64,000 nt of DNA. Source: a virus. Lineage: Duplodnaviria; Caudoviricetes. A program made the position numbers and the translations under genes. The notes beneath the pieces are model-generated. The model was not told where the DNA came from, did no database searches, and saw only the letters and a program-made list of their open reading frames with translations. Positions within the stretch are counted from its first letter, which is position 1; the number at the start of each line of letters is the position of its first letter. Where the stretch lies: IMG/VR virus record IMGVR_UViG_3300047159_000046, one strand, 5' to 3'. Shown in pieces: positions 37,671 through 42,187 of the stretch.

Positions 37671-37955
37671 TTACGAATCACTCTCCATATCAATCATTTT
37701 ATTCAAAGACTCTTTTATTTCCTTGTTGGTAGAGAATGAATGAACAACTCTCTTGAAATCTATCTTTCCATTATTCTCAACAAACAAATCAGCATCCTTG
37801 TCGTTGATATGATATAGATGGATTTTGATGTTCTGTTTTTTATGGGGACAGAATACAATTTCATCAGAACCATCTCCACTAACCGAAACATCGCCGTAGA
37901 TGCCATTTAAATTCGTTTTAACGCACTCTTTGATATTGTCAAACCAGTTATTCAT
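37671..37955 (-). CDS. hypothetical protein
   Basis: ORF; 5' region duplicated at 38814-38851. Confidence 0.7.
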   Translation of the reverse strand: MNNWFDNIKECVKTNLNGIYGDVSVSGDGSDEIVFCPHKKQNIKIHLYHINDKDADLFVENNGKIDFKRVVHSFSTNKEIKESLNKMIDMESDS

Positions 37956-37985
37956 ATTTTTAAAATTAATCGATTATAAATGAAA

Positions 37986-38821
37986 TTAAAATTTGATTTC
38001 ATTATCTGTTGTTATATTGTTAATTTTTCTTTCTATAAGAGATATGTAATCAGGATTTAGTTCGTAACCTATGGCTCTTACGTCCCAATTCTATTGCAGC
38101 TTTCATTGTCGTACCAGTTCCCGCAAACGGGTCTAAAACAGTATCTCCCCAAAAGCTATATAAGTTTTATCAGACGTTTGGGTAATTCGATAGGGAATGG
38201 AGCTGGATGACCTTCCAATTTAGCTTTGGCTGGTTGAATATCCCAAATAGAATTAATCGCCCATTTTTGCCATTCTTCTGAAGTCAATTTACTTTTAGTC
38301 TTTATGTCAACACTTACAGGATCTCTTTTTCCTGCTTTGGAAAATACTGTAATCCATTCGTAAGGATAAGTCGAAAATATATTAGGTGGATATGGATAAC
38401 TTCCAAAAGAGCTGAATCTTCCTACCTTTCTCTTGTCCCATATATAAAGTCCAAACTGAAACATACATCCAGTTGAATCCATGAATTGTTCAATATCTCC
38501 AAGGACCAGCTTTGTTTCTCTTCTTTCAAATCGTGCGTTTTTACCCGTTAAAAGAAAAGGCATGATATTTATACATATCTTTCCATCTGGTGCCAATACC
38601 CTAACGCATTCAGACCATACATTATTTAATGATTCAATATATGATTCATAAGAAGAACTGCCTTTACCTATTTGTCCTTTAACATCATAATCTTTCAAGG
38701 TCCAATAAGGAGGACTGGTAACAATCAGATTGACACTATTGTCTTGTATTTCTGACATATATGTAGAATCCCCTAAATACAATAGGGAATCTTTATTTCT
38801 TAATTGAATTGCTTTATTCAT
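37986..38821 (-). CDS. beta-class N4/N6 DNA methyltransferase (frameshifted near 3' end)
   Basis: IVTSPPY and HPAPFP in main ORF; motif [12 protein letters not shown] and IGYELNPDY lie downstream of 38156 in shifted frames. Confidence 0.85.
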
Positions 38822-38859
38822 ATTTTTAAAATTAATCGATTATAAATGAAAATTAAGAT

Positions 38860-39246
38860 TTCAGCCTTATTAAAAACTCAACATAATATTATTATGTCTC
38901 CAATCTTGTTTAAAGATTTGTTTTTAATACGGCAACAGACCAATAAATACCTATTGTCAATTGTTTAAAGAGCAATTCTGAAACACAGTTCCAAATACTC
39001 TATCAAAAATGCTATTTTTCAAAAAAATAAGAACATAACCATAATGTTACACTCCTCCGTCTTTTACAAGACTTTTTTGAAACGACAACAGACCAACAAA
39101 GACCTGTTGTCAATTGTTTAAAGAGCAATTCTGAAACACAGTTTCAAACACTCTATCAATTTCATGATTATTTTTCAAAAAGTAAGAACGTAACCATAAG
39201 GTTACACTCCTCTGTCTTTTACGAGACTTTTTTGAAACGACAACAG
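38860..39246 (-). ncRNA. tandem array of ~155-nt structured RNA-like repeats (omegaRNA-like) at TnpB 3' end
   Basis: Unit starts at 39246, 39091, 38938; conserved hairpins; copy 3 has different sequence but the same stems. Confidence 0.6.
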
Positions 39247-40812
39247 AACCTCCTTCACCTTATCTCTTTTCATTTTCTTGGGTTCAAAAGCTCCATTATC
39301 ACGTTTTTTTAAGAGTGAATTCCGCAACACAGTTACGAGCACTCTGTTTCTTATATTAATGGCTGCGTTGATATCCGCATTCATCTCGTGACCGCAATCA
39401 ACACATTTGAAATGTTCCTGACATTTTCTATTGTCGTCATCTATGCAACCGCATACAGGACACATTTTGGAAGTATAACTGGCATGAACGGTCGATATGG
39501 CAATATTGTATTTTCTGGCGATATGTTCAAACTCATCTTTGAGAGAGGAAATATTCAGAACACTTACAATTCTATTGAAGTTGATGTCTGCATTGTCCGA
39601 ATCGTGTACAAATGATTTTCCGAATCCGTTATCCAGATTTTCCATAACCACTTGACCTATATGCTTATCTTTAAGATACTTGCAAACATCAACAATGATA
39701 CGCTGGTTTTGATGATGTATTTTATAACGTATTTTATCAATCTTTGCCTGTCTTTTCTTTCCTATCTGGTAAGACGGACATCTTGATTTAATGGTATCCA
39801 GTTTTGTCATTTCGTCACAATAATCTTTAAGAAGTGTTCTGTCATAATCGAATACAGAGCCATCAGACAAAGAAAAAAGATTGTGTTTTATGTTCACATC
39901 AATTCCCATGGTCATTGTGTTATCAGACACTTCTGGCAGATATCTGTCCCCATCTACGCAAAAGAGGATTCTTACCTGCTTCTTGATATCATCAAGATGT
40001 ATTTTATAATATGTCGTATTCAATTTCTCATATCTTTTCATATCTCCATGATAATCAGAAGAATAAGACACTGGAATACTGCATATAACATGTCTCGATA
40101 TACAAAGATTTACAAAAGCATTAATATTTGAATTATAATTCTTATTATAAGATATAAGATTGTTCAATCCGCTTTTGATACTAAAAGTAAGAGATTTAAA
40201 TACGATAGGATAATGACTATACCGATCCATTACAAGTGTCTTATGATCTTGCGCTATACGGAAAAGTCTGTCAAATCCGAACTTGCCGATATGATTCAAA
40301 ATGTTCTGATAGAACTTCTTCTTGTTTTCATCAGCAGACTTTATTGATGTGTTGATAAAGTCCACGGTTGATTCCCGTCCATATTTAGCCAGATAGGACA
40401 ATGTAATGGAAAGAGGAGTCGTTTCATCCTTTCTGATTATCTTTTTGATTTCACCTATCTTATGTCCGTTGGAAGTTCTCTTGTATCTTTCAAATCCAGA
40501 ACACACCGTATGAACAAATTTCATCTTGTTGTTTATGGCCTCAAATTTGTTCTGATAAGCTACATATACCTCATCAATCGCCATTGCATAAAAAGCGGAT
40601 TCCAATTCAATCTTATTATAATTGTTTCTTATGAATTTGGAAAACTCAAACTTGTTCATATCCAAAAAATCATTCAGATTGGCATTAACATATACCGAAA
40701 GCTCATTTTTGAACTTGATAATCTCAATCGCCTTGGCGTGAATCTTGTCATATTTTGAACGTGTAAGAGAATTGCTTACAAAAATTTTGGTGTATTTGCT
40801 ATGCTCAATCAT
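39202..40812 (-). CDS. tnpB: TnpB/Cas12f-like RNA-guided nuclease (536 aa)
   Basis: RuvC-I GIDVN, RuvC-II VMENL, TS..CPVCG..FKCVDCG Zn finger, RuvC-III NADINAAINI; own promoter ~40843-40853; no TnpA adjacent. Confidence 0.9.
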   Translation of the reverse strand: MIEHSKYTKIFVSNSLTRSKYDKIHAKAIEIIKFKNELSVYVNANLNDFLDMNKFEFSKFIRNNYNKIELESAFYAMAIDEVYVAYQNKFEAINNKMKFVHTVCSGFERYKRTSNGHKIGEIKKIIRKDETTPLSITLSYLAKYGRESTVDFINTSIKSADENKKKFYQNILNHIGKFGFDRLFRIAQDHKTLVMDRYSHYPIVFKSLTFSIKSGLNNLISYNKNYNSNINAFVNLCISRHVICSIPVSYSSDYHGDMKRYEKLNTTYYKIHLDDIKKQVRILFCVDGDRYLPEVSDNTMTMGIDVNIKHNLFSLSDGSVFDYDRTLLKDYCDEMTKLDTIKSRCPSYQIGKKRQAKIDKIRYKIHHQNQRIIVDVCKYLKDKHIGQVVMENLDNGFGKSFVHDSDNADINFNRIVSVLNISSLKDEFEHIARKYNIAISTVHASYTSKMCPVCGCIDDDNRKCQEHFKCVDCGHEMNADINAAINIRNRVLVTVLRNSLLKKRDNGAFEPKKMKRDKVKEVLLSFQKSLVKDRGV

Positions 40813-41098
40813 TTGATATTTAATGATATTGTTTTAAATTCGATGCAAAGATACAAAATAATTTCAAAAAAACAATAGAATTTATATAAAAAAATAAAAA
40901 CACTACTATTTTTTAATAGAGGAAAGATAAAGACGAGAGGATAAACTGAATGTCCGAGTGGAATATATCAAACTAATATACTACACATAGCAATTATATG
41001 CAATTCGGTTTTAAAACTCGGACATAATAGAAACTTGATGTTGTGAAACATTCAGTTTTTTTAAACCATGTGGTTCGAGAGAATAGCATGGTTTTTTT

Positions 41099-42187
41099 TT
41101 ATTTATCCGATTTCTGTCTGTTACAGGACACACATAACATCTGGCAATTCTCCCTTACCGTATGTCCTCCCTTTGACCATGGAATTTTATGGTCTGCCTC
41201 CATATCCTCTTCCTTGAAATATCCTCCACATATAGGACACATTCCCCCCTGTGCCTCATAGGCAGCCAGACGGTCACCAATACCGAATTTTCTTATGCTA
41301 AGAAATTTCTCTTTCCCTGTTATCAAATATGAATATATTCCGCTCTTAGATGTCACATCGTCATCCACTATAAGACGTTTTACCTCTGATTTTAAGAATC
41401 CCGTATCAAAATCCTTATCACCATAATCATTATACAATATTCCCCATTCAACATTTTTCTGCAACTTGGCTTTCTTTTCAAACAGTGTATCAACCCATGT
41501 GCATACAGAGTTGAAATATCTGTATAACGGAGCGGCATTCTGGTCATGCTGATGAATGGCCATATAATCCTCTATATCAATATGTTCTTTTGCTGATGCC
41601 CATTTAAGTACCGTTTCAAGATAATCCTGACGTTCCACGGAGCCATTCATATAATCGCTTCCCACCTTATATGCCACACAGTCCTTTTTGCAAAAGAATT
41701 TCTTGGCATCTGTCAACCACTCTCCTGTATATGAAGCATTCCTTAGTTCCTGATCGTTCAATGATTTTCCTGCGATATTGATTACCTTGAACCATTCAAG
41801 ACGCTCTTTCGGTGAACCGTCACAGAAATATATCTGCAATTTATAGTCCAGAATCTGATTCTTCTCCTCTTCTGTAAGATTGCTGAACAGCTTGTGTTCA
41901 AAAGTAAAATCATCATGGACATATCTGCATATACTTATACTGCGTTGCTGTCCGTCAAGAACCTCGTACCTGTCACCATTAACCGCCCAGTACATAACAT
42001 TAAGAGGAAAATTGTTAACAACGGTATTGACCACGGCATCCCTATCAGCATCCTTATATACGAATTCCCTCTGATAGGCAGGTCTGATATCCAGATTGCC
42101 TTTATATCCAAATACTCCCTCTTCGTTCTTGTCAATAAATCCATCTGATAAATCCCTTACAGATATTTCATGCAATGTTATTTTCAT
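41099..42187 (-). CDS. DUF262 (GmrSD/ParB-like) plus HNH endonuclease
   Basis: PAYQREFVY, VLDGQQR, F..IN..G..L, C-terminal CPICG..EADH..PWSKGG.T..NCQMLC..CN. Confidence 0.92.
   Translation of the reverse strand: MKITLHEISVRDLSDGFIDKNEEGVFGYKGNLDIRPAYQREFVYKDADRDAVVNTVVNNFPLNVMYWAVNGDRYEVLDGQQRSISICRYVHDDFTFEHKLFSNLTEEEKNQILDYKLQIYFCDGSPKERLEWFKVINIAGKSLNDQELRNASYTGEWLTDAKKFFCKKDCVAYKVGSDYMNGSVERQDYLETVLKWASAKEHIDIEDYMAIHQHDQNAAPLYRYFNSVCTWVDTLFEKKAKLQKNVEWGILYNDYGDKDFDTGFLKSEVKRLIVDDDVTSKSGIYSYLITGKEKFLSIRKFGIGDRLAAYEAQGGMCPICGGYFKEEDMEADHKIPWSKGGHTVRENCQMLCVSCNRQKSDK

What the first reader, a model, noticed from the sequence alone, without database searches (positions are those of the whole stretch)
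38860..40812. Transposase-free phage TnpB followed by a tandem array of structured RNA scaffolds
Seen: an intact D-E-D RuvC TnpB with its own promoter and no TnpA. From inside its last codons, a unit repeats at 155/153-bp spacing (starts 39246, 39091, 38938). Each begins CTGTTG(T/C)CGT, then an outer stem (TTCAAAAAAGT/ACTTTTTGAA) enclosing two hairpins. Copy 3 has different sequence but the same architecture (GCCGTATTAAAAAC/GTTTTTAATAAGGC, AATCTT/AAGATT, ACATAAT/ATTATGT). Units are joined by a GACAACAGGTC-loop-GGTCTGTTGTC hairpin whose G-U pairs favour the minus strand. Known: TnpB normally has one omegaRNA overlapping its 3' end. Inference: a multiplexed omegaRNA array, a possible intermediate between TnpB and Cas12. 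Caveat: copies 1 and 2 differ mainly in a ~10-nt stretch, so distinct guides are not evident.
Basis: partly seen in the sequence, partly recalled or inferred. Interest (0 to 1): 0.85.

Follow-up and report, generated by a model that had tools for sequence, protein, structure and literature searches.

The report
Phage TnpB with whole-scaffold guide-RNA array
A large phage carries a transposon-type RNA-guided nuclease (TnpB) followed by three complete tandem copies of its guide-RNA scaffold, each followed by a short segment that differs between strains; this looks like a CRISPR-like multi-guide array built from whole guide RNAs, but no RNA ends or targets have been shown.

Summary
A covariance model built only from 36 homologous loci hits the 64-kb window exactly three times. 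All three hits are full-length, on the minus strand and in tandem: 39345-39174, 39154-39018 and 38869-39001.

Copy 1 overlaps the last codons of a 536-aa TnpB with intact D-E-D and zinc-finger residues. Copies 2 and 3 are non-coding, streamlined scaffolds. They keep every helix, but the ~40-nt coding loop of helix P3 is cut to 6 nt and its G-U pairs become Watson-Crick pairs.

Family-wide similarity stops exactly at the scaffold's closing stem, where a TnpB guide begins. In the window, 19-, 16- and ~22-nt segments follow the three scaffolds. Across sister phages from wastewater and sludge (tnpB dS up to 0.12), the segments after the first and last scaffolds are the only hypervariable spots. 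Copy number is 2 or 3.

About 45 other family loci carry a single scaffold, and many have an IS607 TnpA. This lineage has no TnpA and always sits at one locus.

Best reading (about 0.55): a sessile phage TnpB with a whole-scaffold omegaRNA array. No protospacers and no RNA ends were found. OmegaRNA arrays are already described in principle (PMC10691335). This scan noted TnpB mini-arrays on other DNA before, and one two-unit case was explained there as nesting.

The parts
39202..40812 (-). tnpB-like gene, 536 aa (P0001): RuvC D305/E391/D480 and a zinc-finger TNB domain
   Evidence: AF2 model pLDDT 74.5, with Foldseek top hits CasLambda, Cas12f, TnpB, Fanzor2 and TranC. dN/dS is 0.1-0.2 among sister phages.
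40969..40992 (-). Left boundary of the tnpB block (TGCTATGTG...). Assembly graphs of other samples branch exactly here.
   Evidence: Unitig L004 starts at this base and L083 ends at the base before it. L001, L002 and L005 carry a different left flank.
40846..40853 (-). TATCTTTG, a match to the Bacteroidota-type -7 box TAnnTTTG, 34 nt upstream of the ATG. Candidate promoter only.
   Evidence: for the site. No convincing sigma-70 site upstream of the gene. The consensus itself is from my own knowledge.
39174..39345 (-). Scaffold 1: native omegaRNA-like scaffold overlapping the last 48 codons. Helices P1/P2, long-range P3 (39300-39291 with 39248-39239, G-U rich, ~40-nt coding loop), and outer stem P4 enclosing P5 and P6.
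   Evidence: CM R1 gives 130 bits, E = 6e-28, model positions 1-192. MFE fold. Family covariation.
39155..39173 (-). Spacer 1, 19 nt (AAATAATCATGAAATTGAT): putative guide of scaffold 1
   Evidence: It lies between two full-length CM hits. The homologous position is replaced between sister loci.
39018..39154 (-). Scaffold 2: non-coding streamlined copy. P3 is GACAACAGGTC (39111-39101) with GGTCTGTTGTC (39094-39084), and the loop is cut to 6 nt.
   Evidence: CM R1 gives 70 bits, E = 3e-14, full length, with 38 model positions replaced by 4 nt. Fold z = -5.4.
39002..39017 (-). Spacer 2, 16 nt (AAATAGCATTTTTGAT): putative guide of scaffold 2. It is a diverged copy of spacer 1.
38869..39001 (-). 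Scaffold 3: non-coding streamlined copy with a divergent 3' module (C3*) of the same architecture
   Evidence: CM R1 gives 45 bits, E = 2e-8, full length. Fold z = -3.5. It is present in every sister locus whose contig reaches the array's last unit.
38847..38868 (-). Spacer 3, ~22 nt variable segment (AAGGCTGAAATCTTAATTTTCA): putative guide of scaffold 3
   Evidence: Most divergent 20-nt bin of the whole 2.1-kb locus alignment (0.54). Four variants among sister loci.
38814..38846 (-). Constant block with the translation start of the next gene. It repeats exactly at 37948-37980 and so brackets the methylase cassette.
   Evidence: The methylase is absent in L063-L075, where the block is kept.

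Best explanation
What it is. The locus is a transposase-free, immobile TnpB-family RNA-guided nuclease of a large wastewater phage. It carries an array of three complete guide-RNA (omegaRNA) scaffolds in tandem.
- Scaffold 1 is the native one and overlaps the end of the gene.
- Scaffolds 2 and 3 are non-coding versions reduced to the RNA helices alone.
- Each scaffold is followed by a 16-22-nt segment, at the position where a TnpB guide starts.

Inferred mechanism.
1. One transcript runs from upstream of tnpB through the array.
2. TnpB binds each scaffold.
3. 5' processing of the next scaffold sets the 3' end of the preceding guide. This processing could be done by TnpB itself, as shown for other TnpBs in PMC10278001, or by host RNases.
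4. The result is up to three ribonucleoproteins with different guides that cut matching DNA next to a TAM.

Shown here: the three scaffold copies, their structural conservation, the sharp scaffold end, hypervariability of the segments after the first and last scaffolds, and purifying selection on the protein.

Inferred only: transcription, processing, guide use and the targets.

Origin. The ancestral state was two scaffolds (native plus A-hp-C3*). The third unit arose by unequal crossing-over at the shared CTGTTGYCGT, which duplicated 155 nt.
For: 1. A covariance model built from 36 homolog loci, excluding the window (37 pairs, 22 with compensatory changes), hits the 64-kb window only three times. 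All hits are full-length and in tandem (130, 70 and 45 bits).
2. The non-coding copies keep P1-P6. They delete exactly the coding loop of P3 and turn its G-U pairs into Watson-Crick pairs. That is the reverse of decay.
3. Variants in sister phages preserve pairing:
   - P2 is GAAAC/GTTTC, GGAAC/GTTTC or GGAAC/GTTCC.
   - The C3* stem is ATTAAAAAC/GTTTTTAAT or ATTAAAAC/GTTTTAAT.
4. Across about 36 family loci, similarity ends exactly at the 3' arm of the closing stem. The variable segments begin there.
5. In a 2.1-kb alignment of 6 sister loci, background divergence is 0.00-0.15 per 20-nt bin. The bins after scaffold 1 and after the last scaffold reach 0.34 and 0.54. tnpB dS is at most 0.12, so these are replacements rather than drift. 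Examples are AAATAATCATGAAATT versus TTACCGTGTGAGC.
6. Segment lengths of 16-27 nt fit TnpB guide lengths (guide length from my own knowledge).
7. tnpB has dN/dS of 0.1-0.2 and intact catalytic residues.
8. There is no TnpA in the 64 kb. The neighbours are the same in all 15 contigs that carry the identical upstream gene.
9. At least two scaffolds are present in every sister locus that reaches that far, from several wastewater and sludge studies.
Against: - No protospacer was found.
- Several spacers are AT-rich and related to one another by indels (WIN, L001, L063, L073). Part of the variation could therefore be slippage in an unconstrained linker.
- Spacer 2 is a diverged duplicate of spacer 1.
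- L072 carries a damaged second unit: a 7-nt spacer and a lost 5' arm of P1.
- The array has only 2-3 units and exists in one shallow lineage. About 45 other family loci have a single scaffold.
- Scaffold 3 has a 3' module that differs strongly from the native one, so recognition by the same protein is not certain.
- The P6 hairpin plus U-rich arm of scaffold 1 scores as terminator-like, which could limit read-through.
- RNA-library contigs cover the region but give neither strand nor ends.
Confidence: 0.55

Rival explanations
1. Relics without function. The extra scaffolds are right-end remnants left by duplication, or by serial insertion or homing of related elements at one hot spot. The variable segments are junction scars or slippage in unconstrained AT-rich linkers.
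For: - Unit 2 is explained by one unequal crossing-over at CTGTTGYCGT, with spacer 2 a copy of spacer 1.
- Copy number varies between 2 and 3, and one RNA-library contig skips 154 nt.
- L072 has a damaged unit.
- Several spacers differ by indels of A/T runs.
- No targets were found.
- An earlier two-unit case on other DNA was explained as nesting (e1-5444865).
Against: - The non-coding scaffolds are full-length by an independent model, with a clean loop excision and improved pairing.
- They are as conserved as the coding sequence, well below dS, and show compensatory changes.
- The unit is not a dispersed mini-element. There is no other copy in the 64 kb, none in IMG/VR, and only the same locus in the JGI metagenome contigs.
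- Complete replacement of 13-24 nt between loci with dS of about 0.1 is not drift.
Confidence: 0.22
2. The structured RNA or DNA has a role other than guiding. The extra scaffolds could act as decoys that titrate or autoregulate TnpB, as insulators or terminators between tnpB and the downstream exchangeable gene cassette, or as recombination sites for cassette exchange or inversion.
For: - Scaffold 3 abuts a 33-nt block that is repeated exactly and brackets a methylase cassette, which is present or absent among strains.
- Spacer-3 types reassort relative to the tnpB tree.
- In other samples the tnpB block is joined, in inverted orientation, to the start of a scaffold 3' module. This hints at rearrangement at the scaffolds.
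- A terminator-like signal lies in scaffold 1.
Against: - A decoy or terminator does not need all six helices of the guide scaffold.
- It also does not need the exact guide-start boundary followed by a variable segment of guide length.
- The family's single scaffolds already lie at gene ends without such roles.
Confidence: 0.13
3. Homing-only system. The guides match only the tnpB-free allele of this same locus in sibling phages. The variable segments would then reflect target-site escape in recipients followed by recombination, not multi-target defence.
For: - TnpB guides are normally the right-end flank and serve element retention or homing (PMC8612924, PMC10278001).
- A unitig ends exactly at the left boundary in a sample where the block has two left contexts.
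- The L057 sibling carries a rival IS607-tnpB inserted into this tnpB.
Against: - No tnpB-free allele was seen among the 15 contigs that carry the identical upstream gene.
- Homing needs one guide, not an array of streamlined scaffolds.
Confidence: 0.1

Closest known systems
OmegaRNA arrays of exapted TnpBs (Sigma-TnpB / cluster 17474) and the long-repeat CRISPR-like arrays of V-U40-43/Cas12f1 (Altae-Tran et al., PNAS 2023, PMC10691335)
   Same: The whole guide scaffold (repeats longer than 60 bp) is duplicated in tandem downstream of the nuclease gene. Sharp repeat boundaries separate scaffold from guide, there are no cas1/cas2 genes, and the authors propose multi-site targeting.
   Different: The described case is nuclease-dead, RpoE-linked and chromosomal in Bacteroidota. 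This one has an intact RuvC, sits in a large phage and has no rpoE. It has one coding plus two streamlined non-coding scaffolds. I also document strain-to-strain replacement of the segments after the first and last scaffolds.
IS607-type TnpB/omegaRNA (OMEGA) elements; solved relatives ISDra2 TnpB (8exa, 8h1j) and ISFba1 TnpB (8iaz)
   Same: A RuvC plus zinc-finger nuclease. The RNA scaffold overlaps the 3' end of the gene and ends at the element's right end, with the guide being the flank. About 10 family loci carry a MerR-HTH serine-recombinase TnpA directly upstream.
   Different: This lineage has no TnpA, a fixed locus and extra non-coding scaffolds. The protein is 536 aa and its N-terminal two thirds have no sequence match to solved TnpBs.
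Type V CRISPR effectors of phages and miniature Cas12 (CasLambda/Cas12l 8dc2, Cas12f 7wju/8dzj)
   Same: They are the best structural matches and are phage-borne or compact. In type V systems the array lies downstream of the effector, as noted in PMC10691335.
   Different: Those systems use short CRISPR repeats, with or without a tracrRNA. Here each repeat is an entire unsplit scaffold of 133-172 nt. TM-scores are only 0.3-0.4.
TranC, transposon-CRISPR intermediates (LaTranC, 9jfq/9jfo)
   Same: A TnpB-like nuclease at the transposon-to-CRISPR boundary; it is a weak structural and sequence match.
   Different: As I understand it from citing papers only, TranC splits the omegaRNA into tracr-like and CRISPR parts. 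No split and no short repeat is present here.

Membership tests
TnpB / OMEGA (IS607-type) | RuvC-like nuclease with D-E-D triad and C-terminal zinc-finger (TNB) domain | tested here: met
   PF07282, E = 2e-16. D305, E391, D480 and four Cys are invariant. D480 and the zinc finger align to AsCas12f D401. Foldseek matches TnpB and Cas12f.
TnpB / OMEGA (IS607-type) | Structured RNA scaffold overlapping the 3' end of tnpB, with a sharp 3' boundary followed by the guide | tested here: met
   RNAalifold on 36 loci gives 37 pairs, 22 of them compensatory. Similarity stops at the closing stem. The CM hit in the window scores 130 bits.
TnpB / OMEGA (IS607-type) | Linked TnpA (serine recombinase or Y1) and evidence of mobility | tested here: not met
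   Met for the wider family: TnpA lies upstream in about 10 loci, and there is an insertion in L057. Not met for this lineage: no TnpA in 64 kb, and the same neighbours in 15 contigs. An alternative left junction in 3 unitigs remains unexplained.
TnpB / OMEGA (IS607-type) | RNA-guided, TAM-dependent DNA cleavage | not testable with these tools
   Needs biochemistry or an interference assay.
Whole-omegaRNA array (PMC10691335) | Entire scaffold repeated in tandem, with a guide-length unique segment after each repeat | tested here: met
   Three full-length CM hits separated by 19 and 16 nt, with ~22 variable nt after the last. The segments after the first and last scaffolds differ between strains.
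Whole-omegaRNA array (PMC10691335) | Each unit yields a functional guide RNA | not testable with these tools
   RNA-library contigs cover the region but give no ends or strand.
CRISPR-Cas type V (Cas12) | CRISPR array of short direct repeats (about 25-40 nt) with unique spacers | tested here: not met
   The repeats are 133-172-nt scaffolds and there are 2-3 units. No short-repeat array was found by Tandem Repeats Finder in 38000-41500.
CRISPR-Cas type V (Cas12) | Adaptation genes (cas1/cas2/cas4) nearby | tested here: not met
   The neighbours are EcoRI-type methylases, GmrSD_N-HNH, an N6_N4 methylase and small unknown genes. Many V-U systems also lack adaptation genes.
Nested insertion into a gene-less mini-element (MITE/PATE-like) | The extra unit has its own left and right ends and occurs as dispersed copies | tested here: not met
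   The unit aligns end to end with the scaffold model and not with the left end. No further copy occurs in the window. IMG/VR has none. The JGI metagenome contigs hold one locus, of the same type.

The most novel reading that the evidence does not exclude
This would be an independent, phage-borne step from transposon nuclease to CRISPR-like system, caught at the 'whole scaffold as repeat' stage. A sessile, catalytically intact TnpB is served by streamlined stand-alone omegaRNA genes. Their guides turn over between strains by a cas1/cas2-free capture or exchange process, and they are used against rival phages or other DNA.
Probability: 0.3. Interest if true: 0.85.

Novelty: new variant of a known kind. 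Interest (0 to 1): 0.68.

Why it matters
CRISPR arrays of type V systems are thought to have arisen by serial duplication of omegaRNA segments (PMC10691335), but few natural loci show the early steps.

This locus shows one such step in a nuclease that still looks active. The scaffold has been freed from the coding sequence and minimised to about 135 nt by natural selection. Guide-length segments change between strains that are about 97-99% identical.

The practical consequences are these:
- It offers a naturally minimised scaffold design for a 536-aa nuclease family that is abundant in huge phages.
- It is a natural template for multiplexed TnpB guides.
- Sister phages from several wastewater and sludge studies form a tractable set in which guide turnover without Cas1-Cas2 can be studied.

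Tried and rejected
Searches that found nothing useful:
- Rfam scan of 38000-41500 at E <= 1: no family.
- Megablast of 8 kb against GenBank phages: no match.
- No whole genome is held for this window.
- Single-protein search of IMG/VR: nothing.
- C-unit pattern in IMG/VR: 0 hits.

Protospacer search:
- Ten spacer variants were searched against the window and all fetched loci (500 kb, up to 2 mismatches). Only the arrays themselves and AT-rich chance hits appeared.
- Exact scans of IMG/VR gave 0 hits for a 23-mer and 0 for a 20-mer.
- The 19-mer of spacer 1 gave 8 hits in unrelated contigs with no shared 5' motif, which is chance level.
- The 16-mer TTACCGTGTGAGCGAT gave 4 hits. Two are the same low-GC phage (L084/L087), with a 19/20 match counting the extension, in a non-coding leader. 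I rate this as chance level.

RNA evidence:
- Contigs of three metatranscriptome libraries cover tnpB and the array. They give no strand, ends or levels, so they neither support nor oppose transcription of the array.

Ideas rejected or left open:
- Nested mini-transposon: rejected (see membership test).
- Internal promoter made of the scaffold end plus the next scaffold's start (TTGAAA-17-TAGAGT): rejected, because the spacing would change with spacer length.
- TAnnTTTG enrichment as a host or promoter clue: 125 sites against 82 expected from mononucleotide shuffles. This is suggestive only.
- TAM inference from three left junctions (...ATAAT...GGGAAT twice...GGCAAC): too few to call.
Full report
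**1. What is there**

On the minus strand, ORF 39202-40812 encodes a 536-aa protein, P0001.
- Pfam recognises only the Cas12f1-like TNB zinc-finger domain.
- In an alignment with 19 homologues, D305 (GIDVN), E391 (MENL), D480 (NADINAA) and the CxxC...CxxC cysteines are invariant.
- The zinc finger and D480 align with AsCas12f and its D401.
- An AlphaFold model (pLDDT 74.5) finds CasLambda, Cas12f, TnpB, Fanzor2 and TranC as best structural matches. TM-scores are low, 0.3-0.4.
- Upstream lies a GmrSD_N-HNH gene and downstream an N6/N4 DNA methylase.
- The window looks like part of a large phage. It has a sliding clamp and a terminase-like gene, and the protein cluster's longest contig is 241 kb.
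- Identical or near-identical DNA occurs in wastewater and bioreactor-sludge metagenomes from 13 studies.

**2. The repeat, put in register**

Tandem Repeats Finder and pairwise alignment confirm the 153/155-nt repeat. A further 41-nt piece of the repeat has a 73% copy inside the coding sequence at 39345-39305, with compensatory changes in its hairpin. So the repeated unit is a copy of the gene's own 3' region.

I used about 36 distinct homologous loci, mostly from 80-670-kb IMG/VR viral contigs.
- Family-wide similarity ends exactly at the 3' arm of a closing stem (TTCTTCGGA in most loci). That stem covaries with its 5' arm: ACCGTACA/TGTACGGT, CTCCGTCCAAA/TTTGGGCGGA, and TTTCAAAAAAG/CTTTTTGAAA in the window.
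- RNAalifold on these loci, window excluded, predicts 37 pairs, 22 of them with compensatory changes. The helices are P1/P2, a long-range P3, and an outer stem P4 enclosing P5 (and P6).
- This is the anatomy of a TnpB omegaRNA: the scaffold overlaps the gene end and the guide starts at the sharp boundary.

**3. Independent test**

A covariance model built from those 36 loci was run over the whole 64-kb window.
- It gives exactly three significant hits, all spanning model positions 1-192 and all on the minus strand, head to tail:
  - 39345-39174: 130 bits, E = 6e-28
  - 39154-39018: 70 bits, E = 3e-14
  - 39001-38869: 45 bits, E = 2e-8
- The next best hit has E = 0.84.
- In hits 2 and 3, 38-39 model positions (the loop of P3) are replaced by 4-5 nt.

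MFE folds agree.
- In the native copy, GATAATGGAG (the D-N-G codons) pairs through several G-U pairs with TTCTGTTGTC (the L-L-S codons), around a ~40-nt coding loop.
- In the non-coding copies the same helix is GACAACAGGTC/GGTCTGTTGTC, fully Watson-Crick, with a 6-nt loop.

The extra copies are therefore streamlined scaffolds, not decayed gene ends.

**4. The segments after the scaffolds**

The three scaffolds are followed by 19 nt (39173-39155), 16 nt (39017-39002) and about 22 variable nt (38868-38847). After that comes a constant 33-nt block with the start of the next gene. This block is repeated exactly at 37948-37980 and brackets the methylase cassette.

About 25 sister loci, with TnpB at least about 96% identical and the same upstream gene, were fetched.
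- Most carry two scaffolds: the native one plus the A-hp-C3* unit.
- The window carries three. L072 and L073 carry a second C1-type unit before their contigs end.
- The window's middle unit is explained by one unequal crossing-over at the shared CTGTTGYCGT, which duplicated 155 nt.

The segments vary as follows:

| Position | Locus | Segment |
|---|---|---|
| After scaffold 1 | window, L058 | AAATAATCATGAAATT |
| After scaffold 1 | L001 | AAAATAATCATGAAATAAC |
| After scaffold 1 | L063 | TAAGAAATACACAAAAATGAAATT |
| After scaffold 1 | L073 | AGACAAAAATGAAATT |
| After scaffold 1 | L064 and ten others | TTACCGTGTGAGC |
| After the last scaffold | four variants among the sister loci | |

- In a 2.1-kb alignment of six sister loci, mean pairwise divergence per 20-nt bin is 0.00-0.15 everywhere within the locus up to the next gene's start. 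The exceptions are these two places, at 0.34 and 0.54.
- tnpB itself has dN/dS of 0.1-0.2 and dS of at most 0.12.
- The non-coding scaffolds are therefore conserved well below the neutral rate, while the segments are replaced far above it.
- Changes inside the non-coding scaffolds keep pairing. P2 goes A-U, then G-U, then G-C. The C3* stem loses one A and one T together.

**5. Distribution**

- The same model finds exactly one scaffold in each of about 45 other family loci (355 kb searched). Extra scaffolds occur only in the window's lineage.
- About 10 family loci carry a MerR-HTH serine recombinase, an IS607-type TnpA, directly upstream of tnpB. Some contigs carry two family copies. The family is therefore an IS607-type mobile TnpB of huge phages.
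- The window has no TnpA.
- All 15 contigs with the identical upstream gene have tnpB in the same place. This lineage appears sessile.

**6. Interpretation**

The most economical reading is a whole-scaffold omegaRNA array. It is co-transcribed with tnpB and cut into single guide RNAs. TnpB is known to process the 5' end of its own omegaRNA (PMC10278001).

The anatomy is solid. The function is inferred.

Against the functional reading:
- No targets were found.
- The AT-rich spacers are partly related to one another by indels.
- One sister locus, L072, has a damaged unit.
- The array is small and lineage-restricted.
- No RNA ends are available.

The rivals are functionless relics, a regulatory or recombination role, and homing-only guides. 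Each is listed with its own evidence. The nesting explanation that held for an earlier two-unit case on other DNA fails here. The unit aligns end to end with the scaffold and is not dispersed.

**7. Relation to what is known**

- Whole-omegaRNA arrays and CRISPR-like arrays with long repeats are already described for nuclease-dead Sigma-TnpB and for V-U40-43/Cas12f1 clades. Those authors suggested an alternative guide-capture mechanism (PMC10691335).
- This locus differs in four ways: it is phage-borne, its RuvC is intact, it has naturally streamlined non-coding scaffolds, and guide-segment turnover between strains is documented here.
- It is not a CRISPR array in the strict sense. It has no short repeats, no split RNA and no adaptation genes.
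- I therefore class it as a new variant of a known kind.

**8. Unexplained**

- In three unitigs from other samples, the tnpB block (from TGCTATGTG) is preceded by the reverse complement of the start of a scaffold 3' module (GAAACGGCAAC|TGCTATGTG), not by the usual left flank. Two other unitigs break exactly at this boundary.
- This could be an inversion of the tnpB block against the array, or a second locus. It could not be resolved.

Noticed in passing
L057:2513-5500 (insertion point = window 39902/39901): In a sister phage, this tnpB is interrupted exactly at the RuvC-I GIDVN codon by an IS607-like unit: a 76-aa ORF, a MerR-HTH/resolvase TnpA, a 126-aa ORF and a 547-aa TnpB of the same family. 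The left junction follows GGGAAT, as does the same element's junction in L020. This may be the TAM.
   Followed up: partly
L001:1-40, L002, L005; window 40992: An alternative left junction exists: the reverse complement of a scaffold 3' module start is joined to the tnpB block (GAAACGGCAAC|TGCTATGTG). Unitigs L004 and L083 break exactly at this point. The cause could be an inversion or a second locus.
   Followed up: partly
window 37948-37980 and 38814-38846: An exact 33-nt direct repeat of a translation-start block brackets the N6/N4 methylase gene. Sister loci L063-L075 lack the methylase and keep one copy of the block, as expected for a cassette lost or gained through the repeat.
   Followed up: partly
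window 40945-41035 (minus strand): A 10-bp inverted repeat, ATGTCCGAGT / ACTCGGACAT, spans the left boundary of the tnpB block, which lies in its loop. A further CTGAATGT/ACATTCAG pair lies outside it.
   Followed up: no
L024, L025, L026, L054 (first 100 nt after the scaffold end): In several family loci, the DNA directly after the scaffold end is tRNA-like (for example GGTTCGAATCC). These elements therefore sit next to or inside tRNA genes of huge phages.
   Followed up: no
L087:1420-1445 and L084: A low-GC IMG/VR phage carries a 19/20 match to the spacer TTACCGTGTGAGCGAT(AGAG) of sister loci L064-L081. The match lies in a non-coding hairpin-rich leader. It is statistically at chance level.
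   Followed up: partly
IMG/VR contigs behind L022/L030, L025/L038, L036/L041, L013/L042: Four single huge-phage contigs (192-339 kb) each carry two copies of this TnpB family, consistent with mobility inside phage genomes.
   Followed up: no
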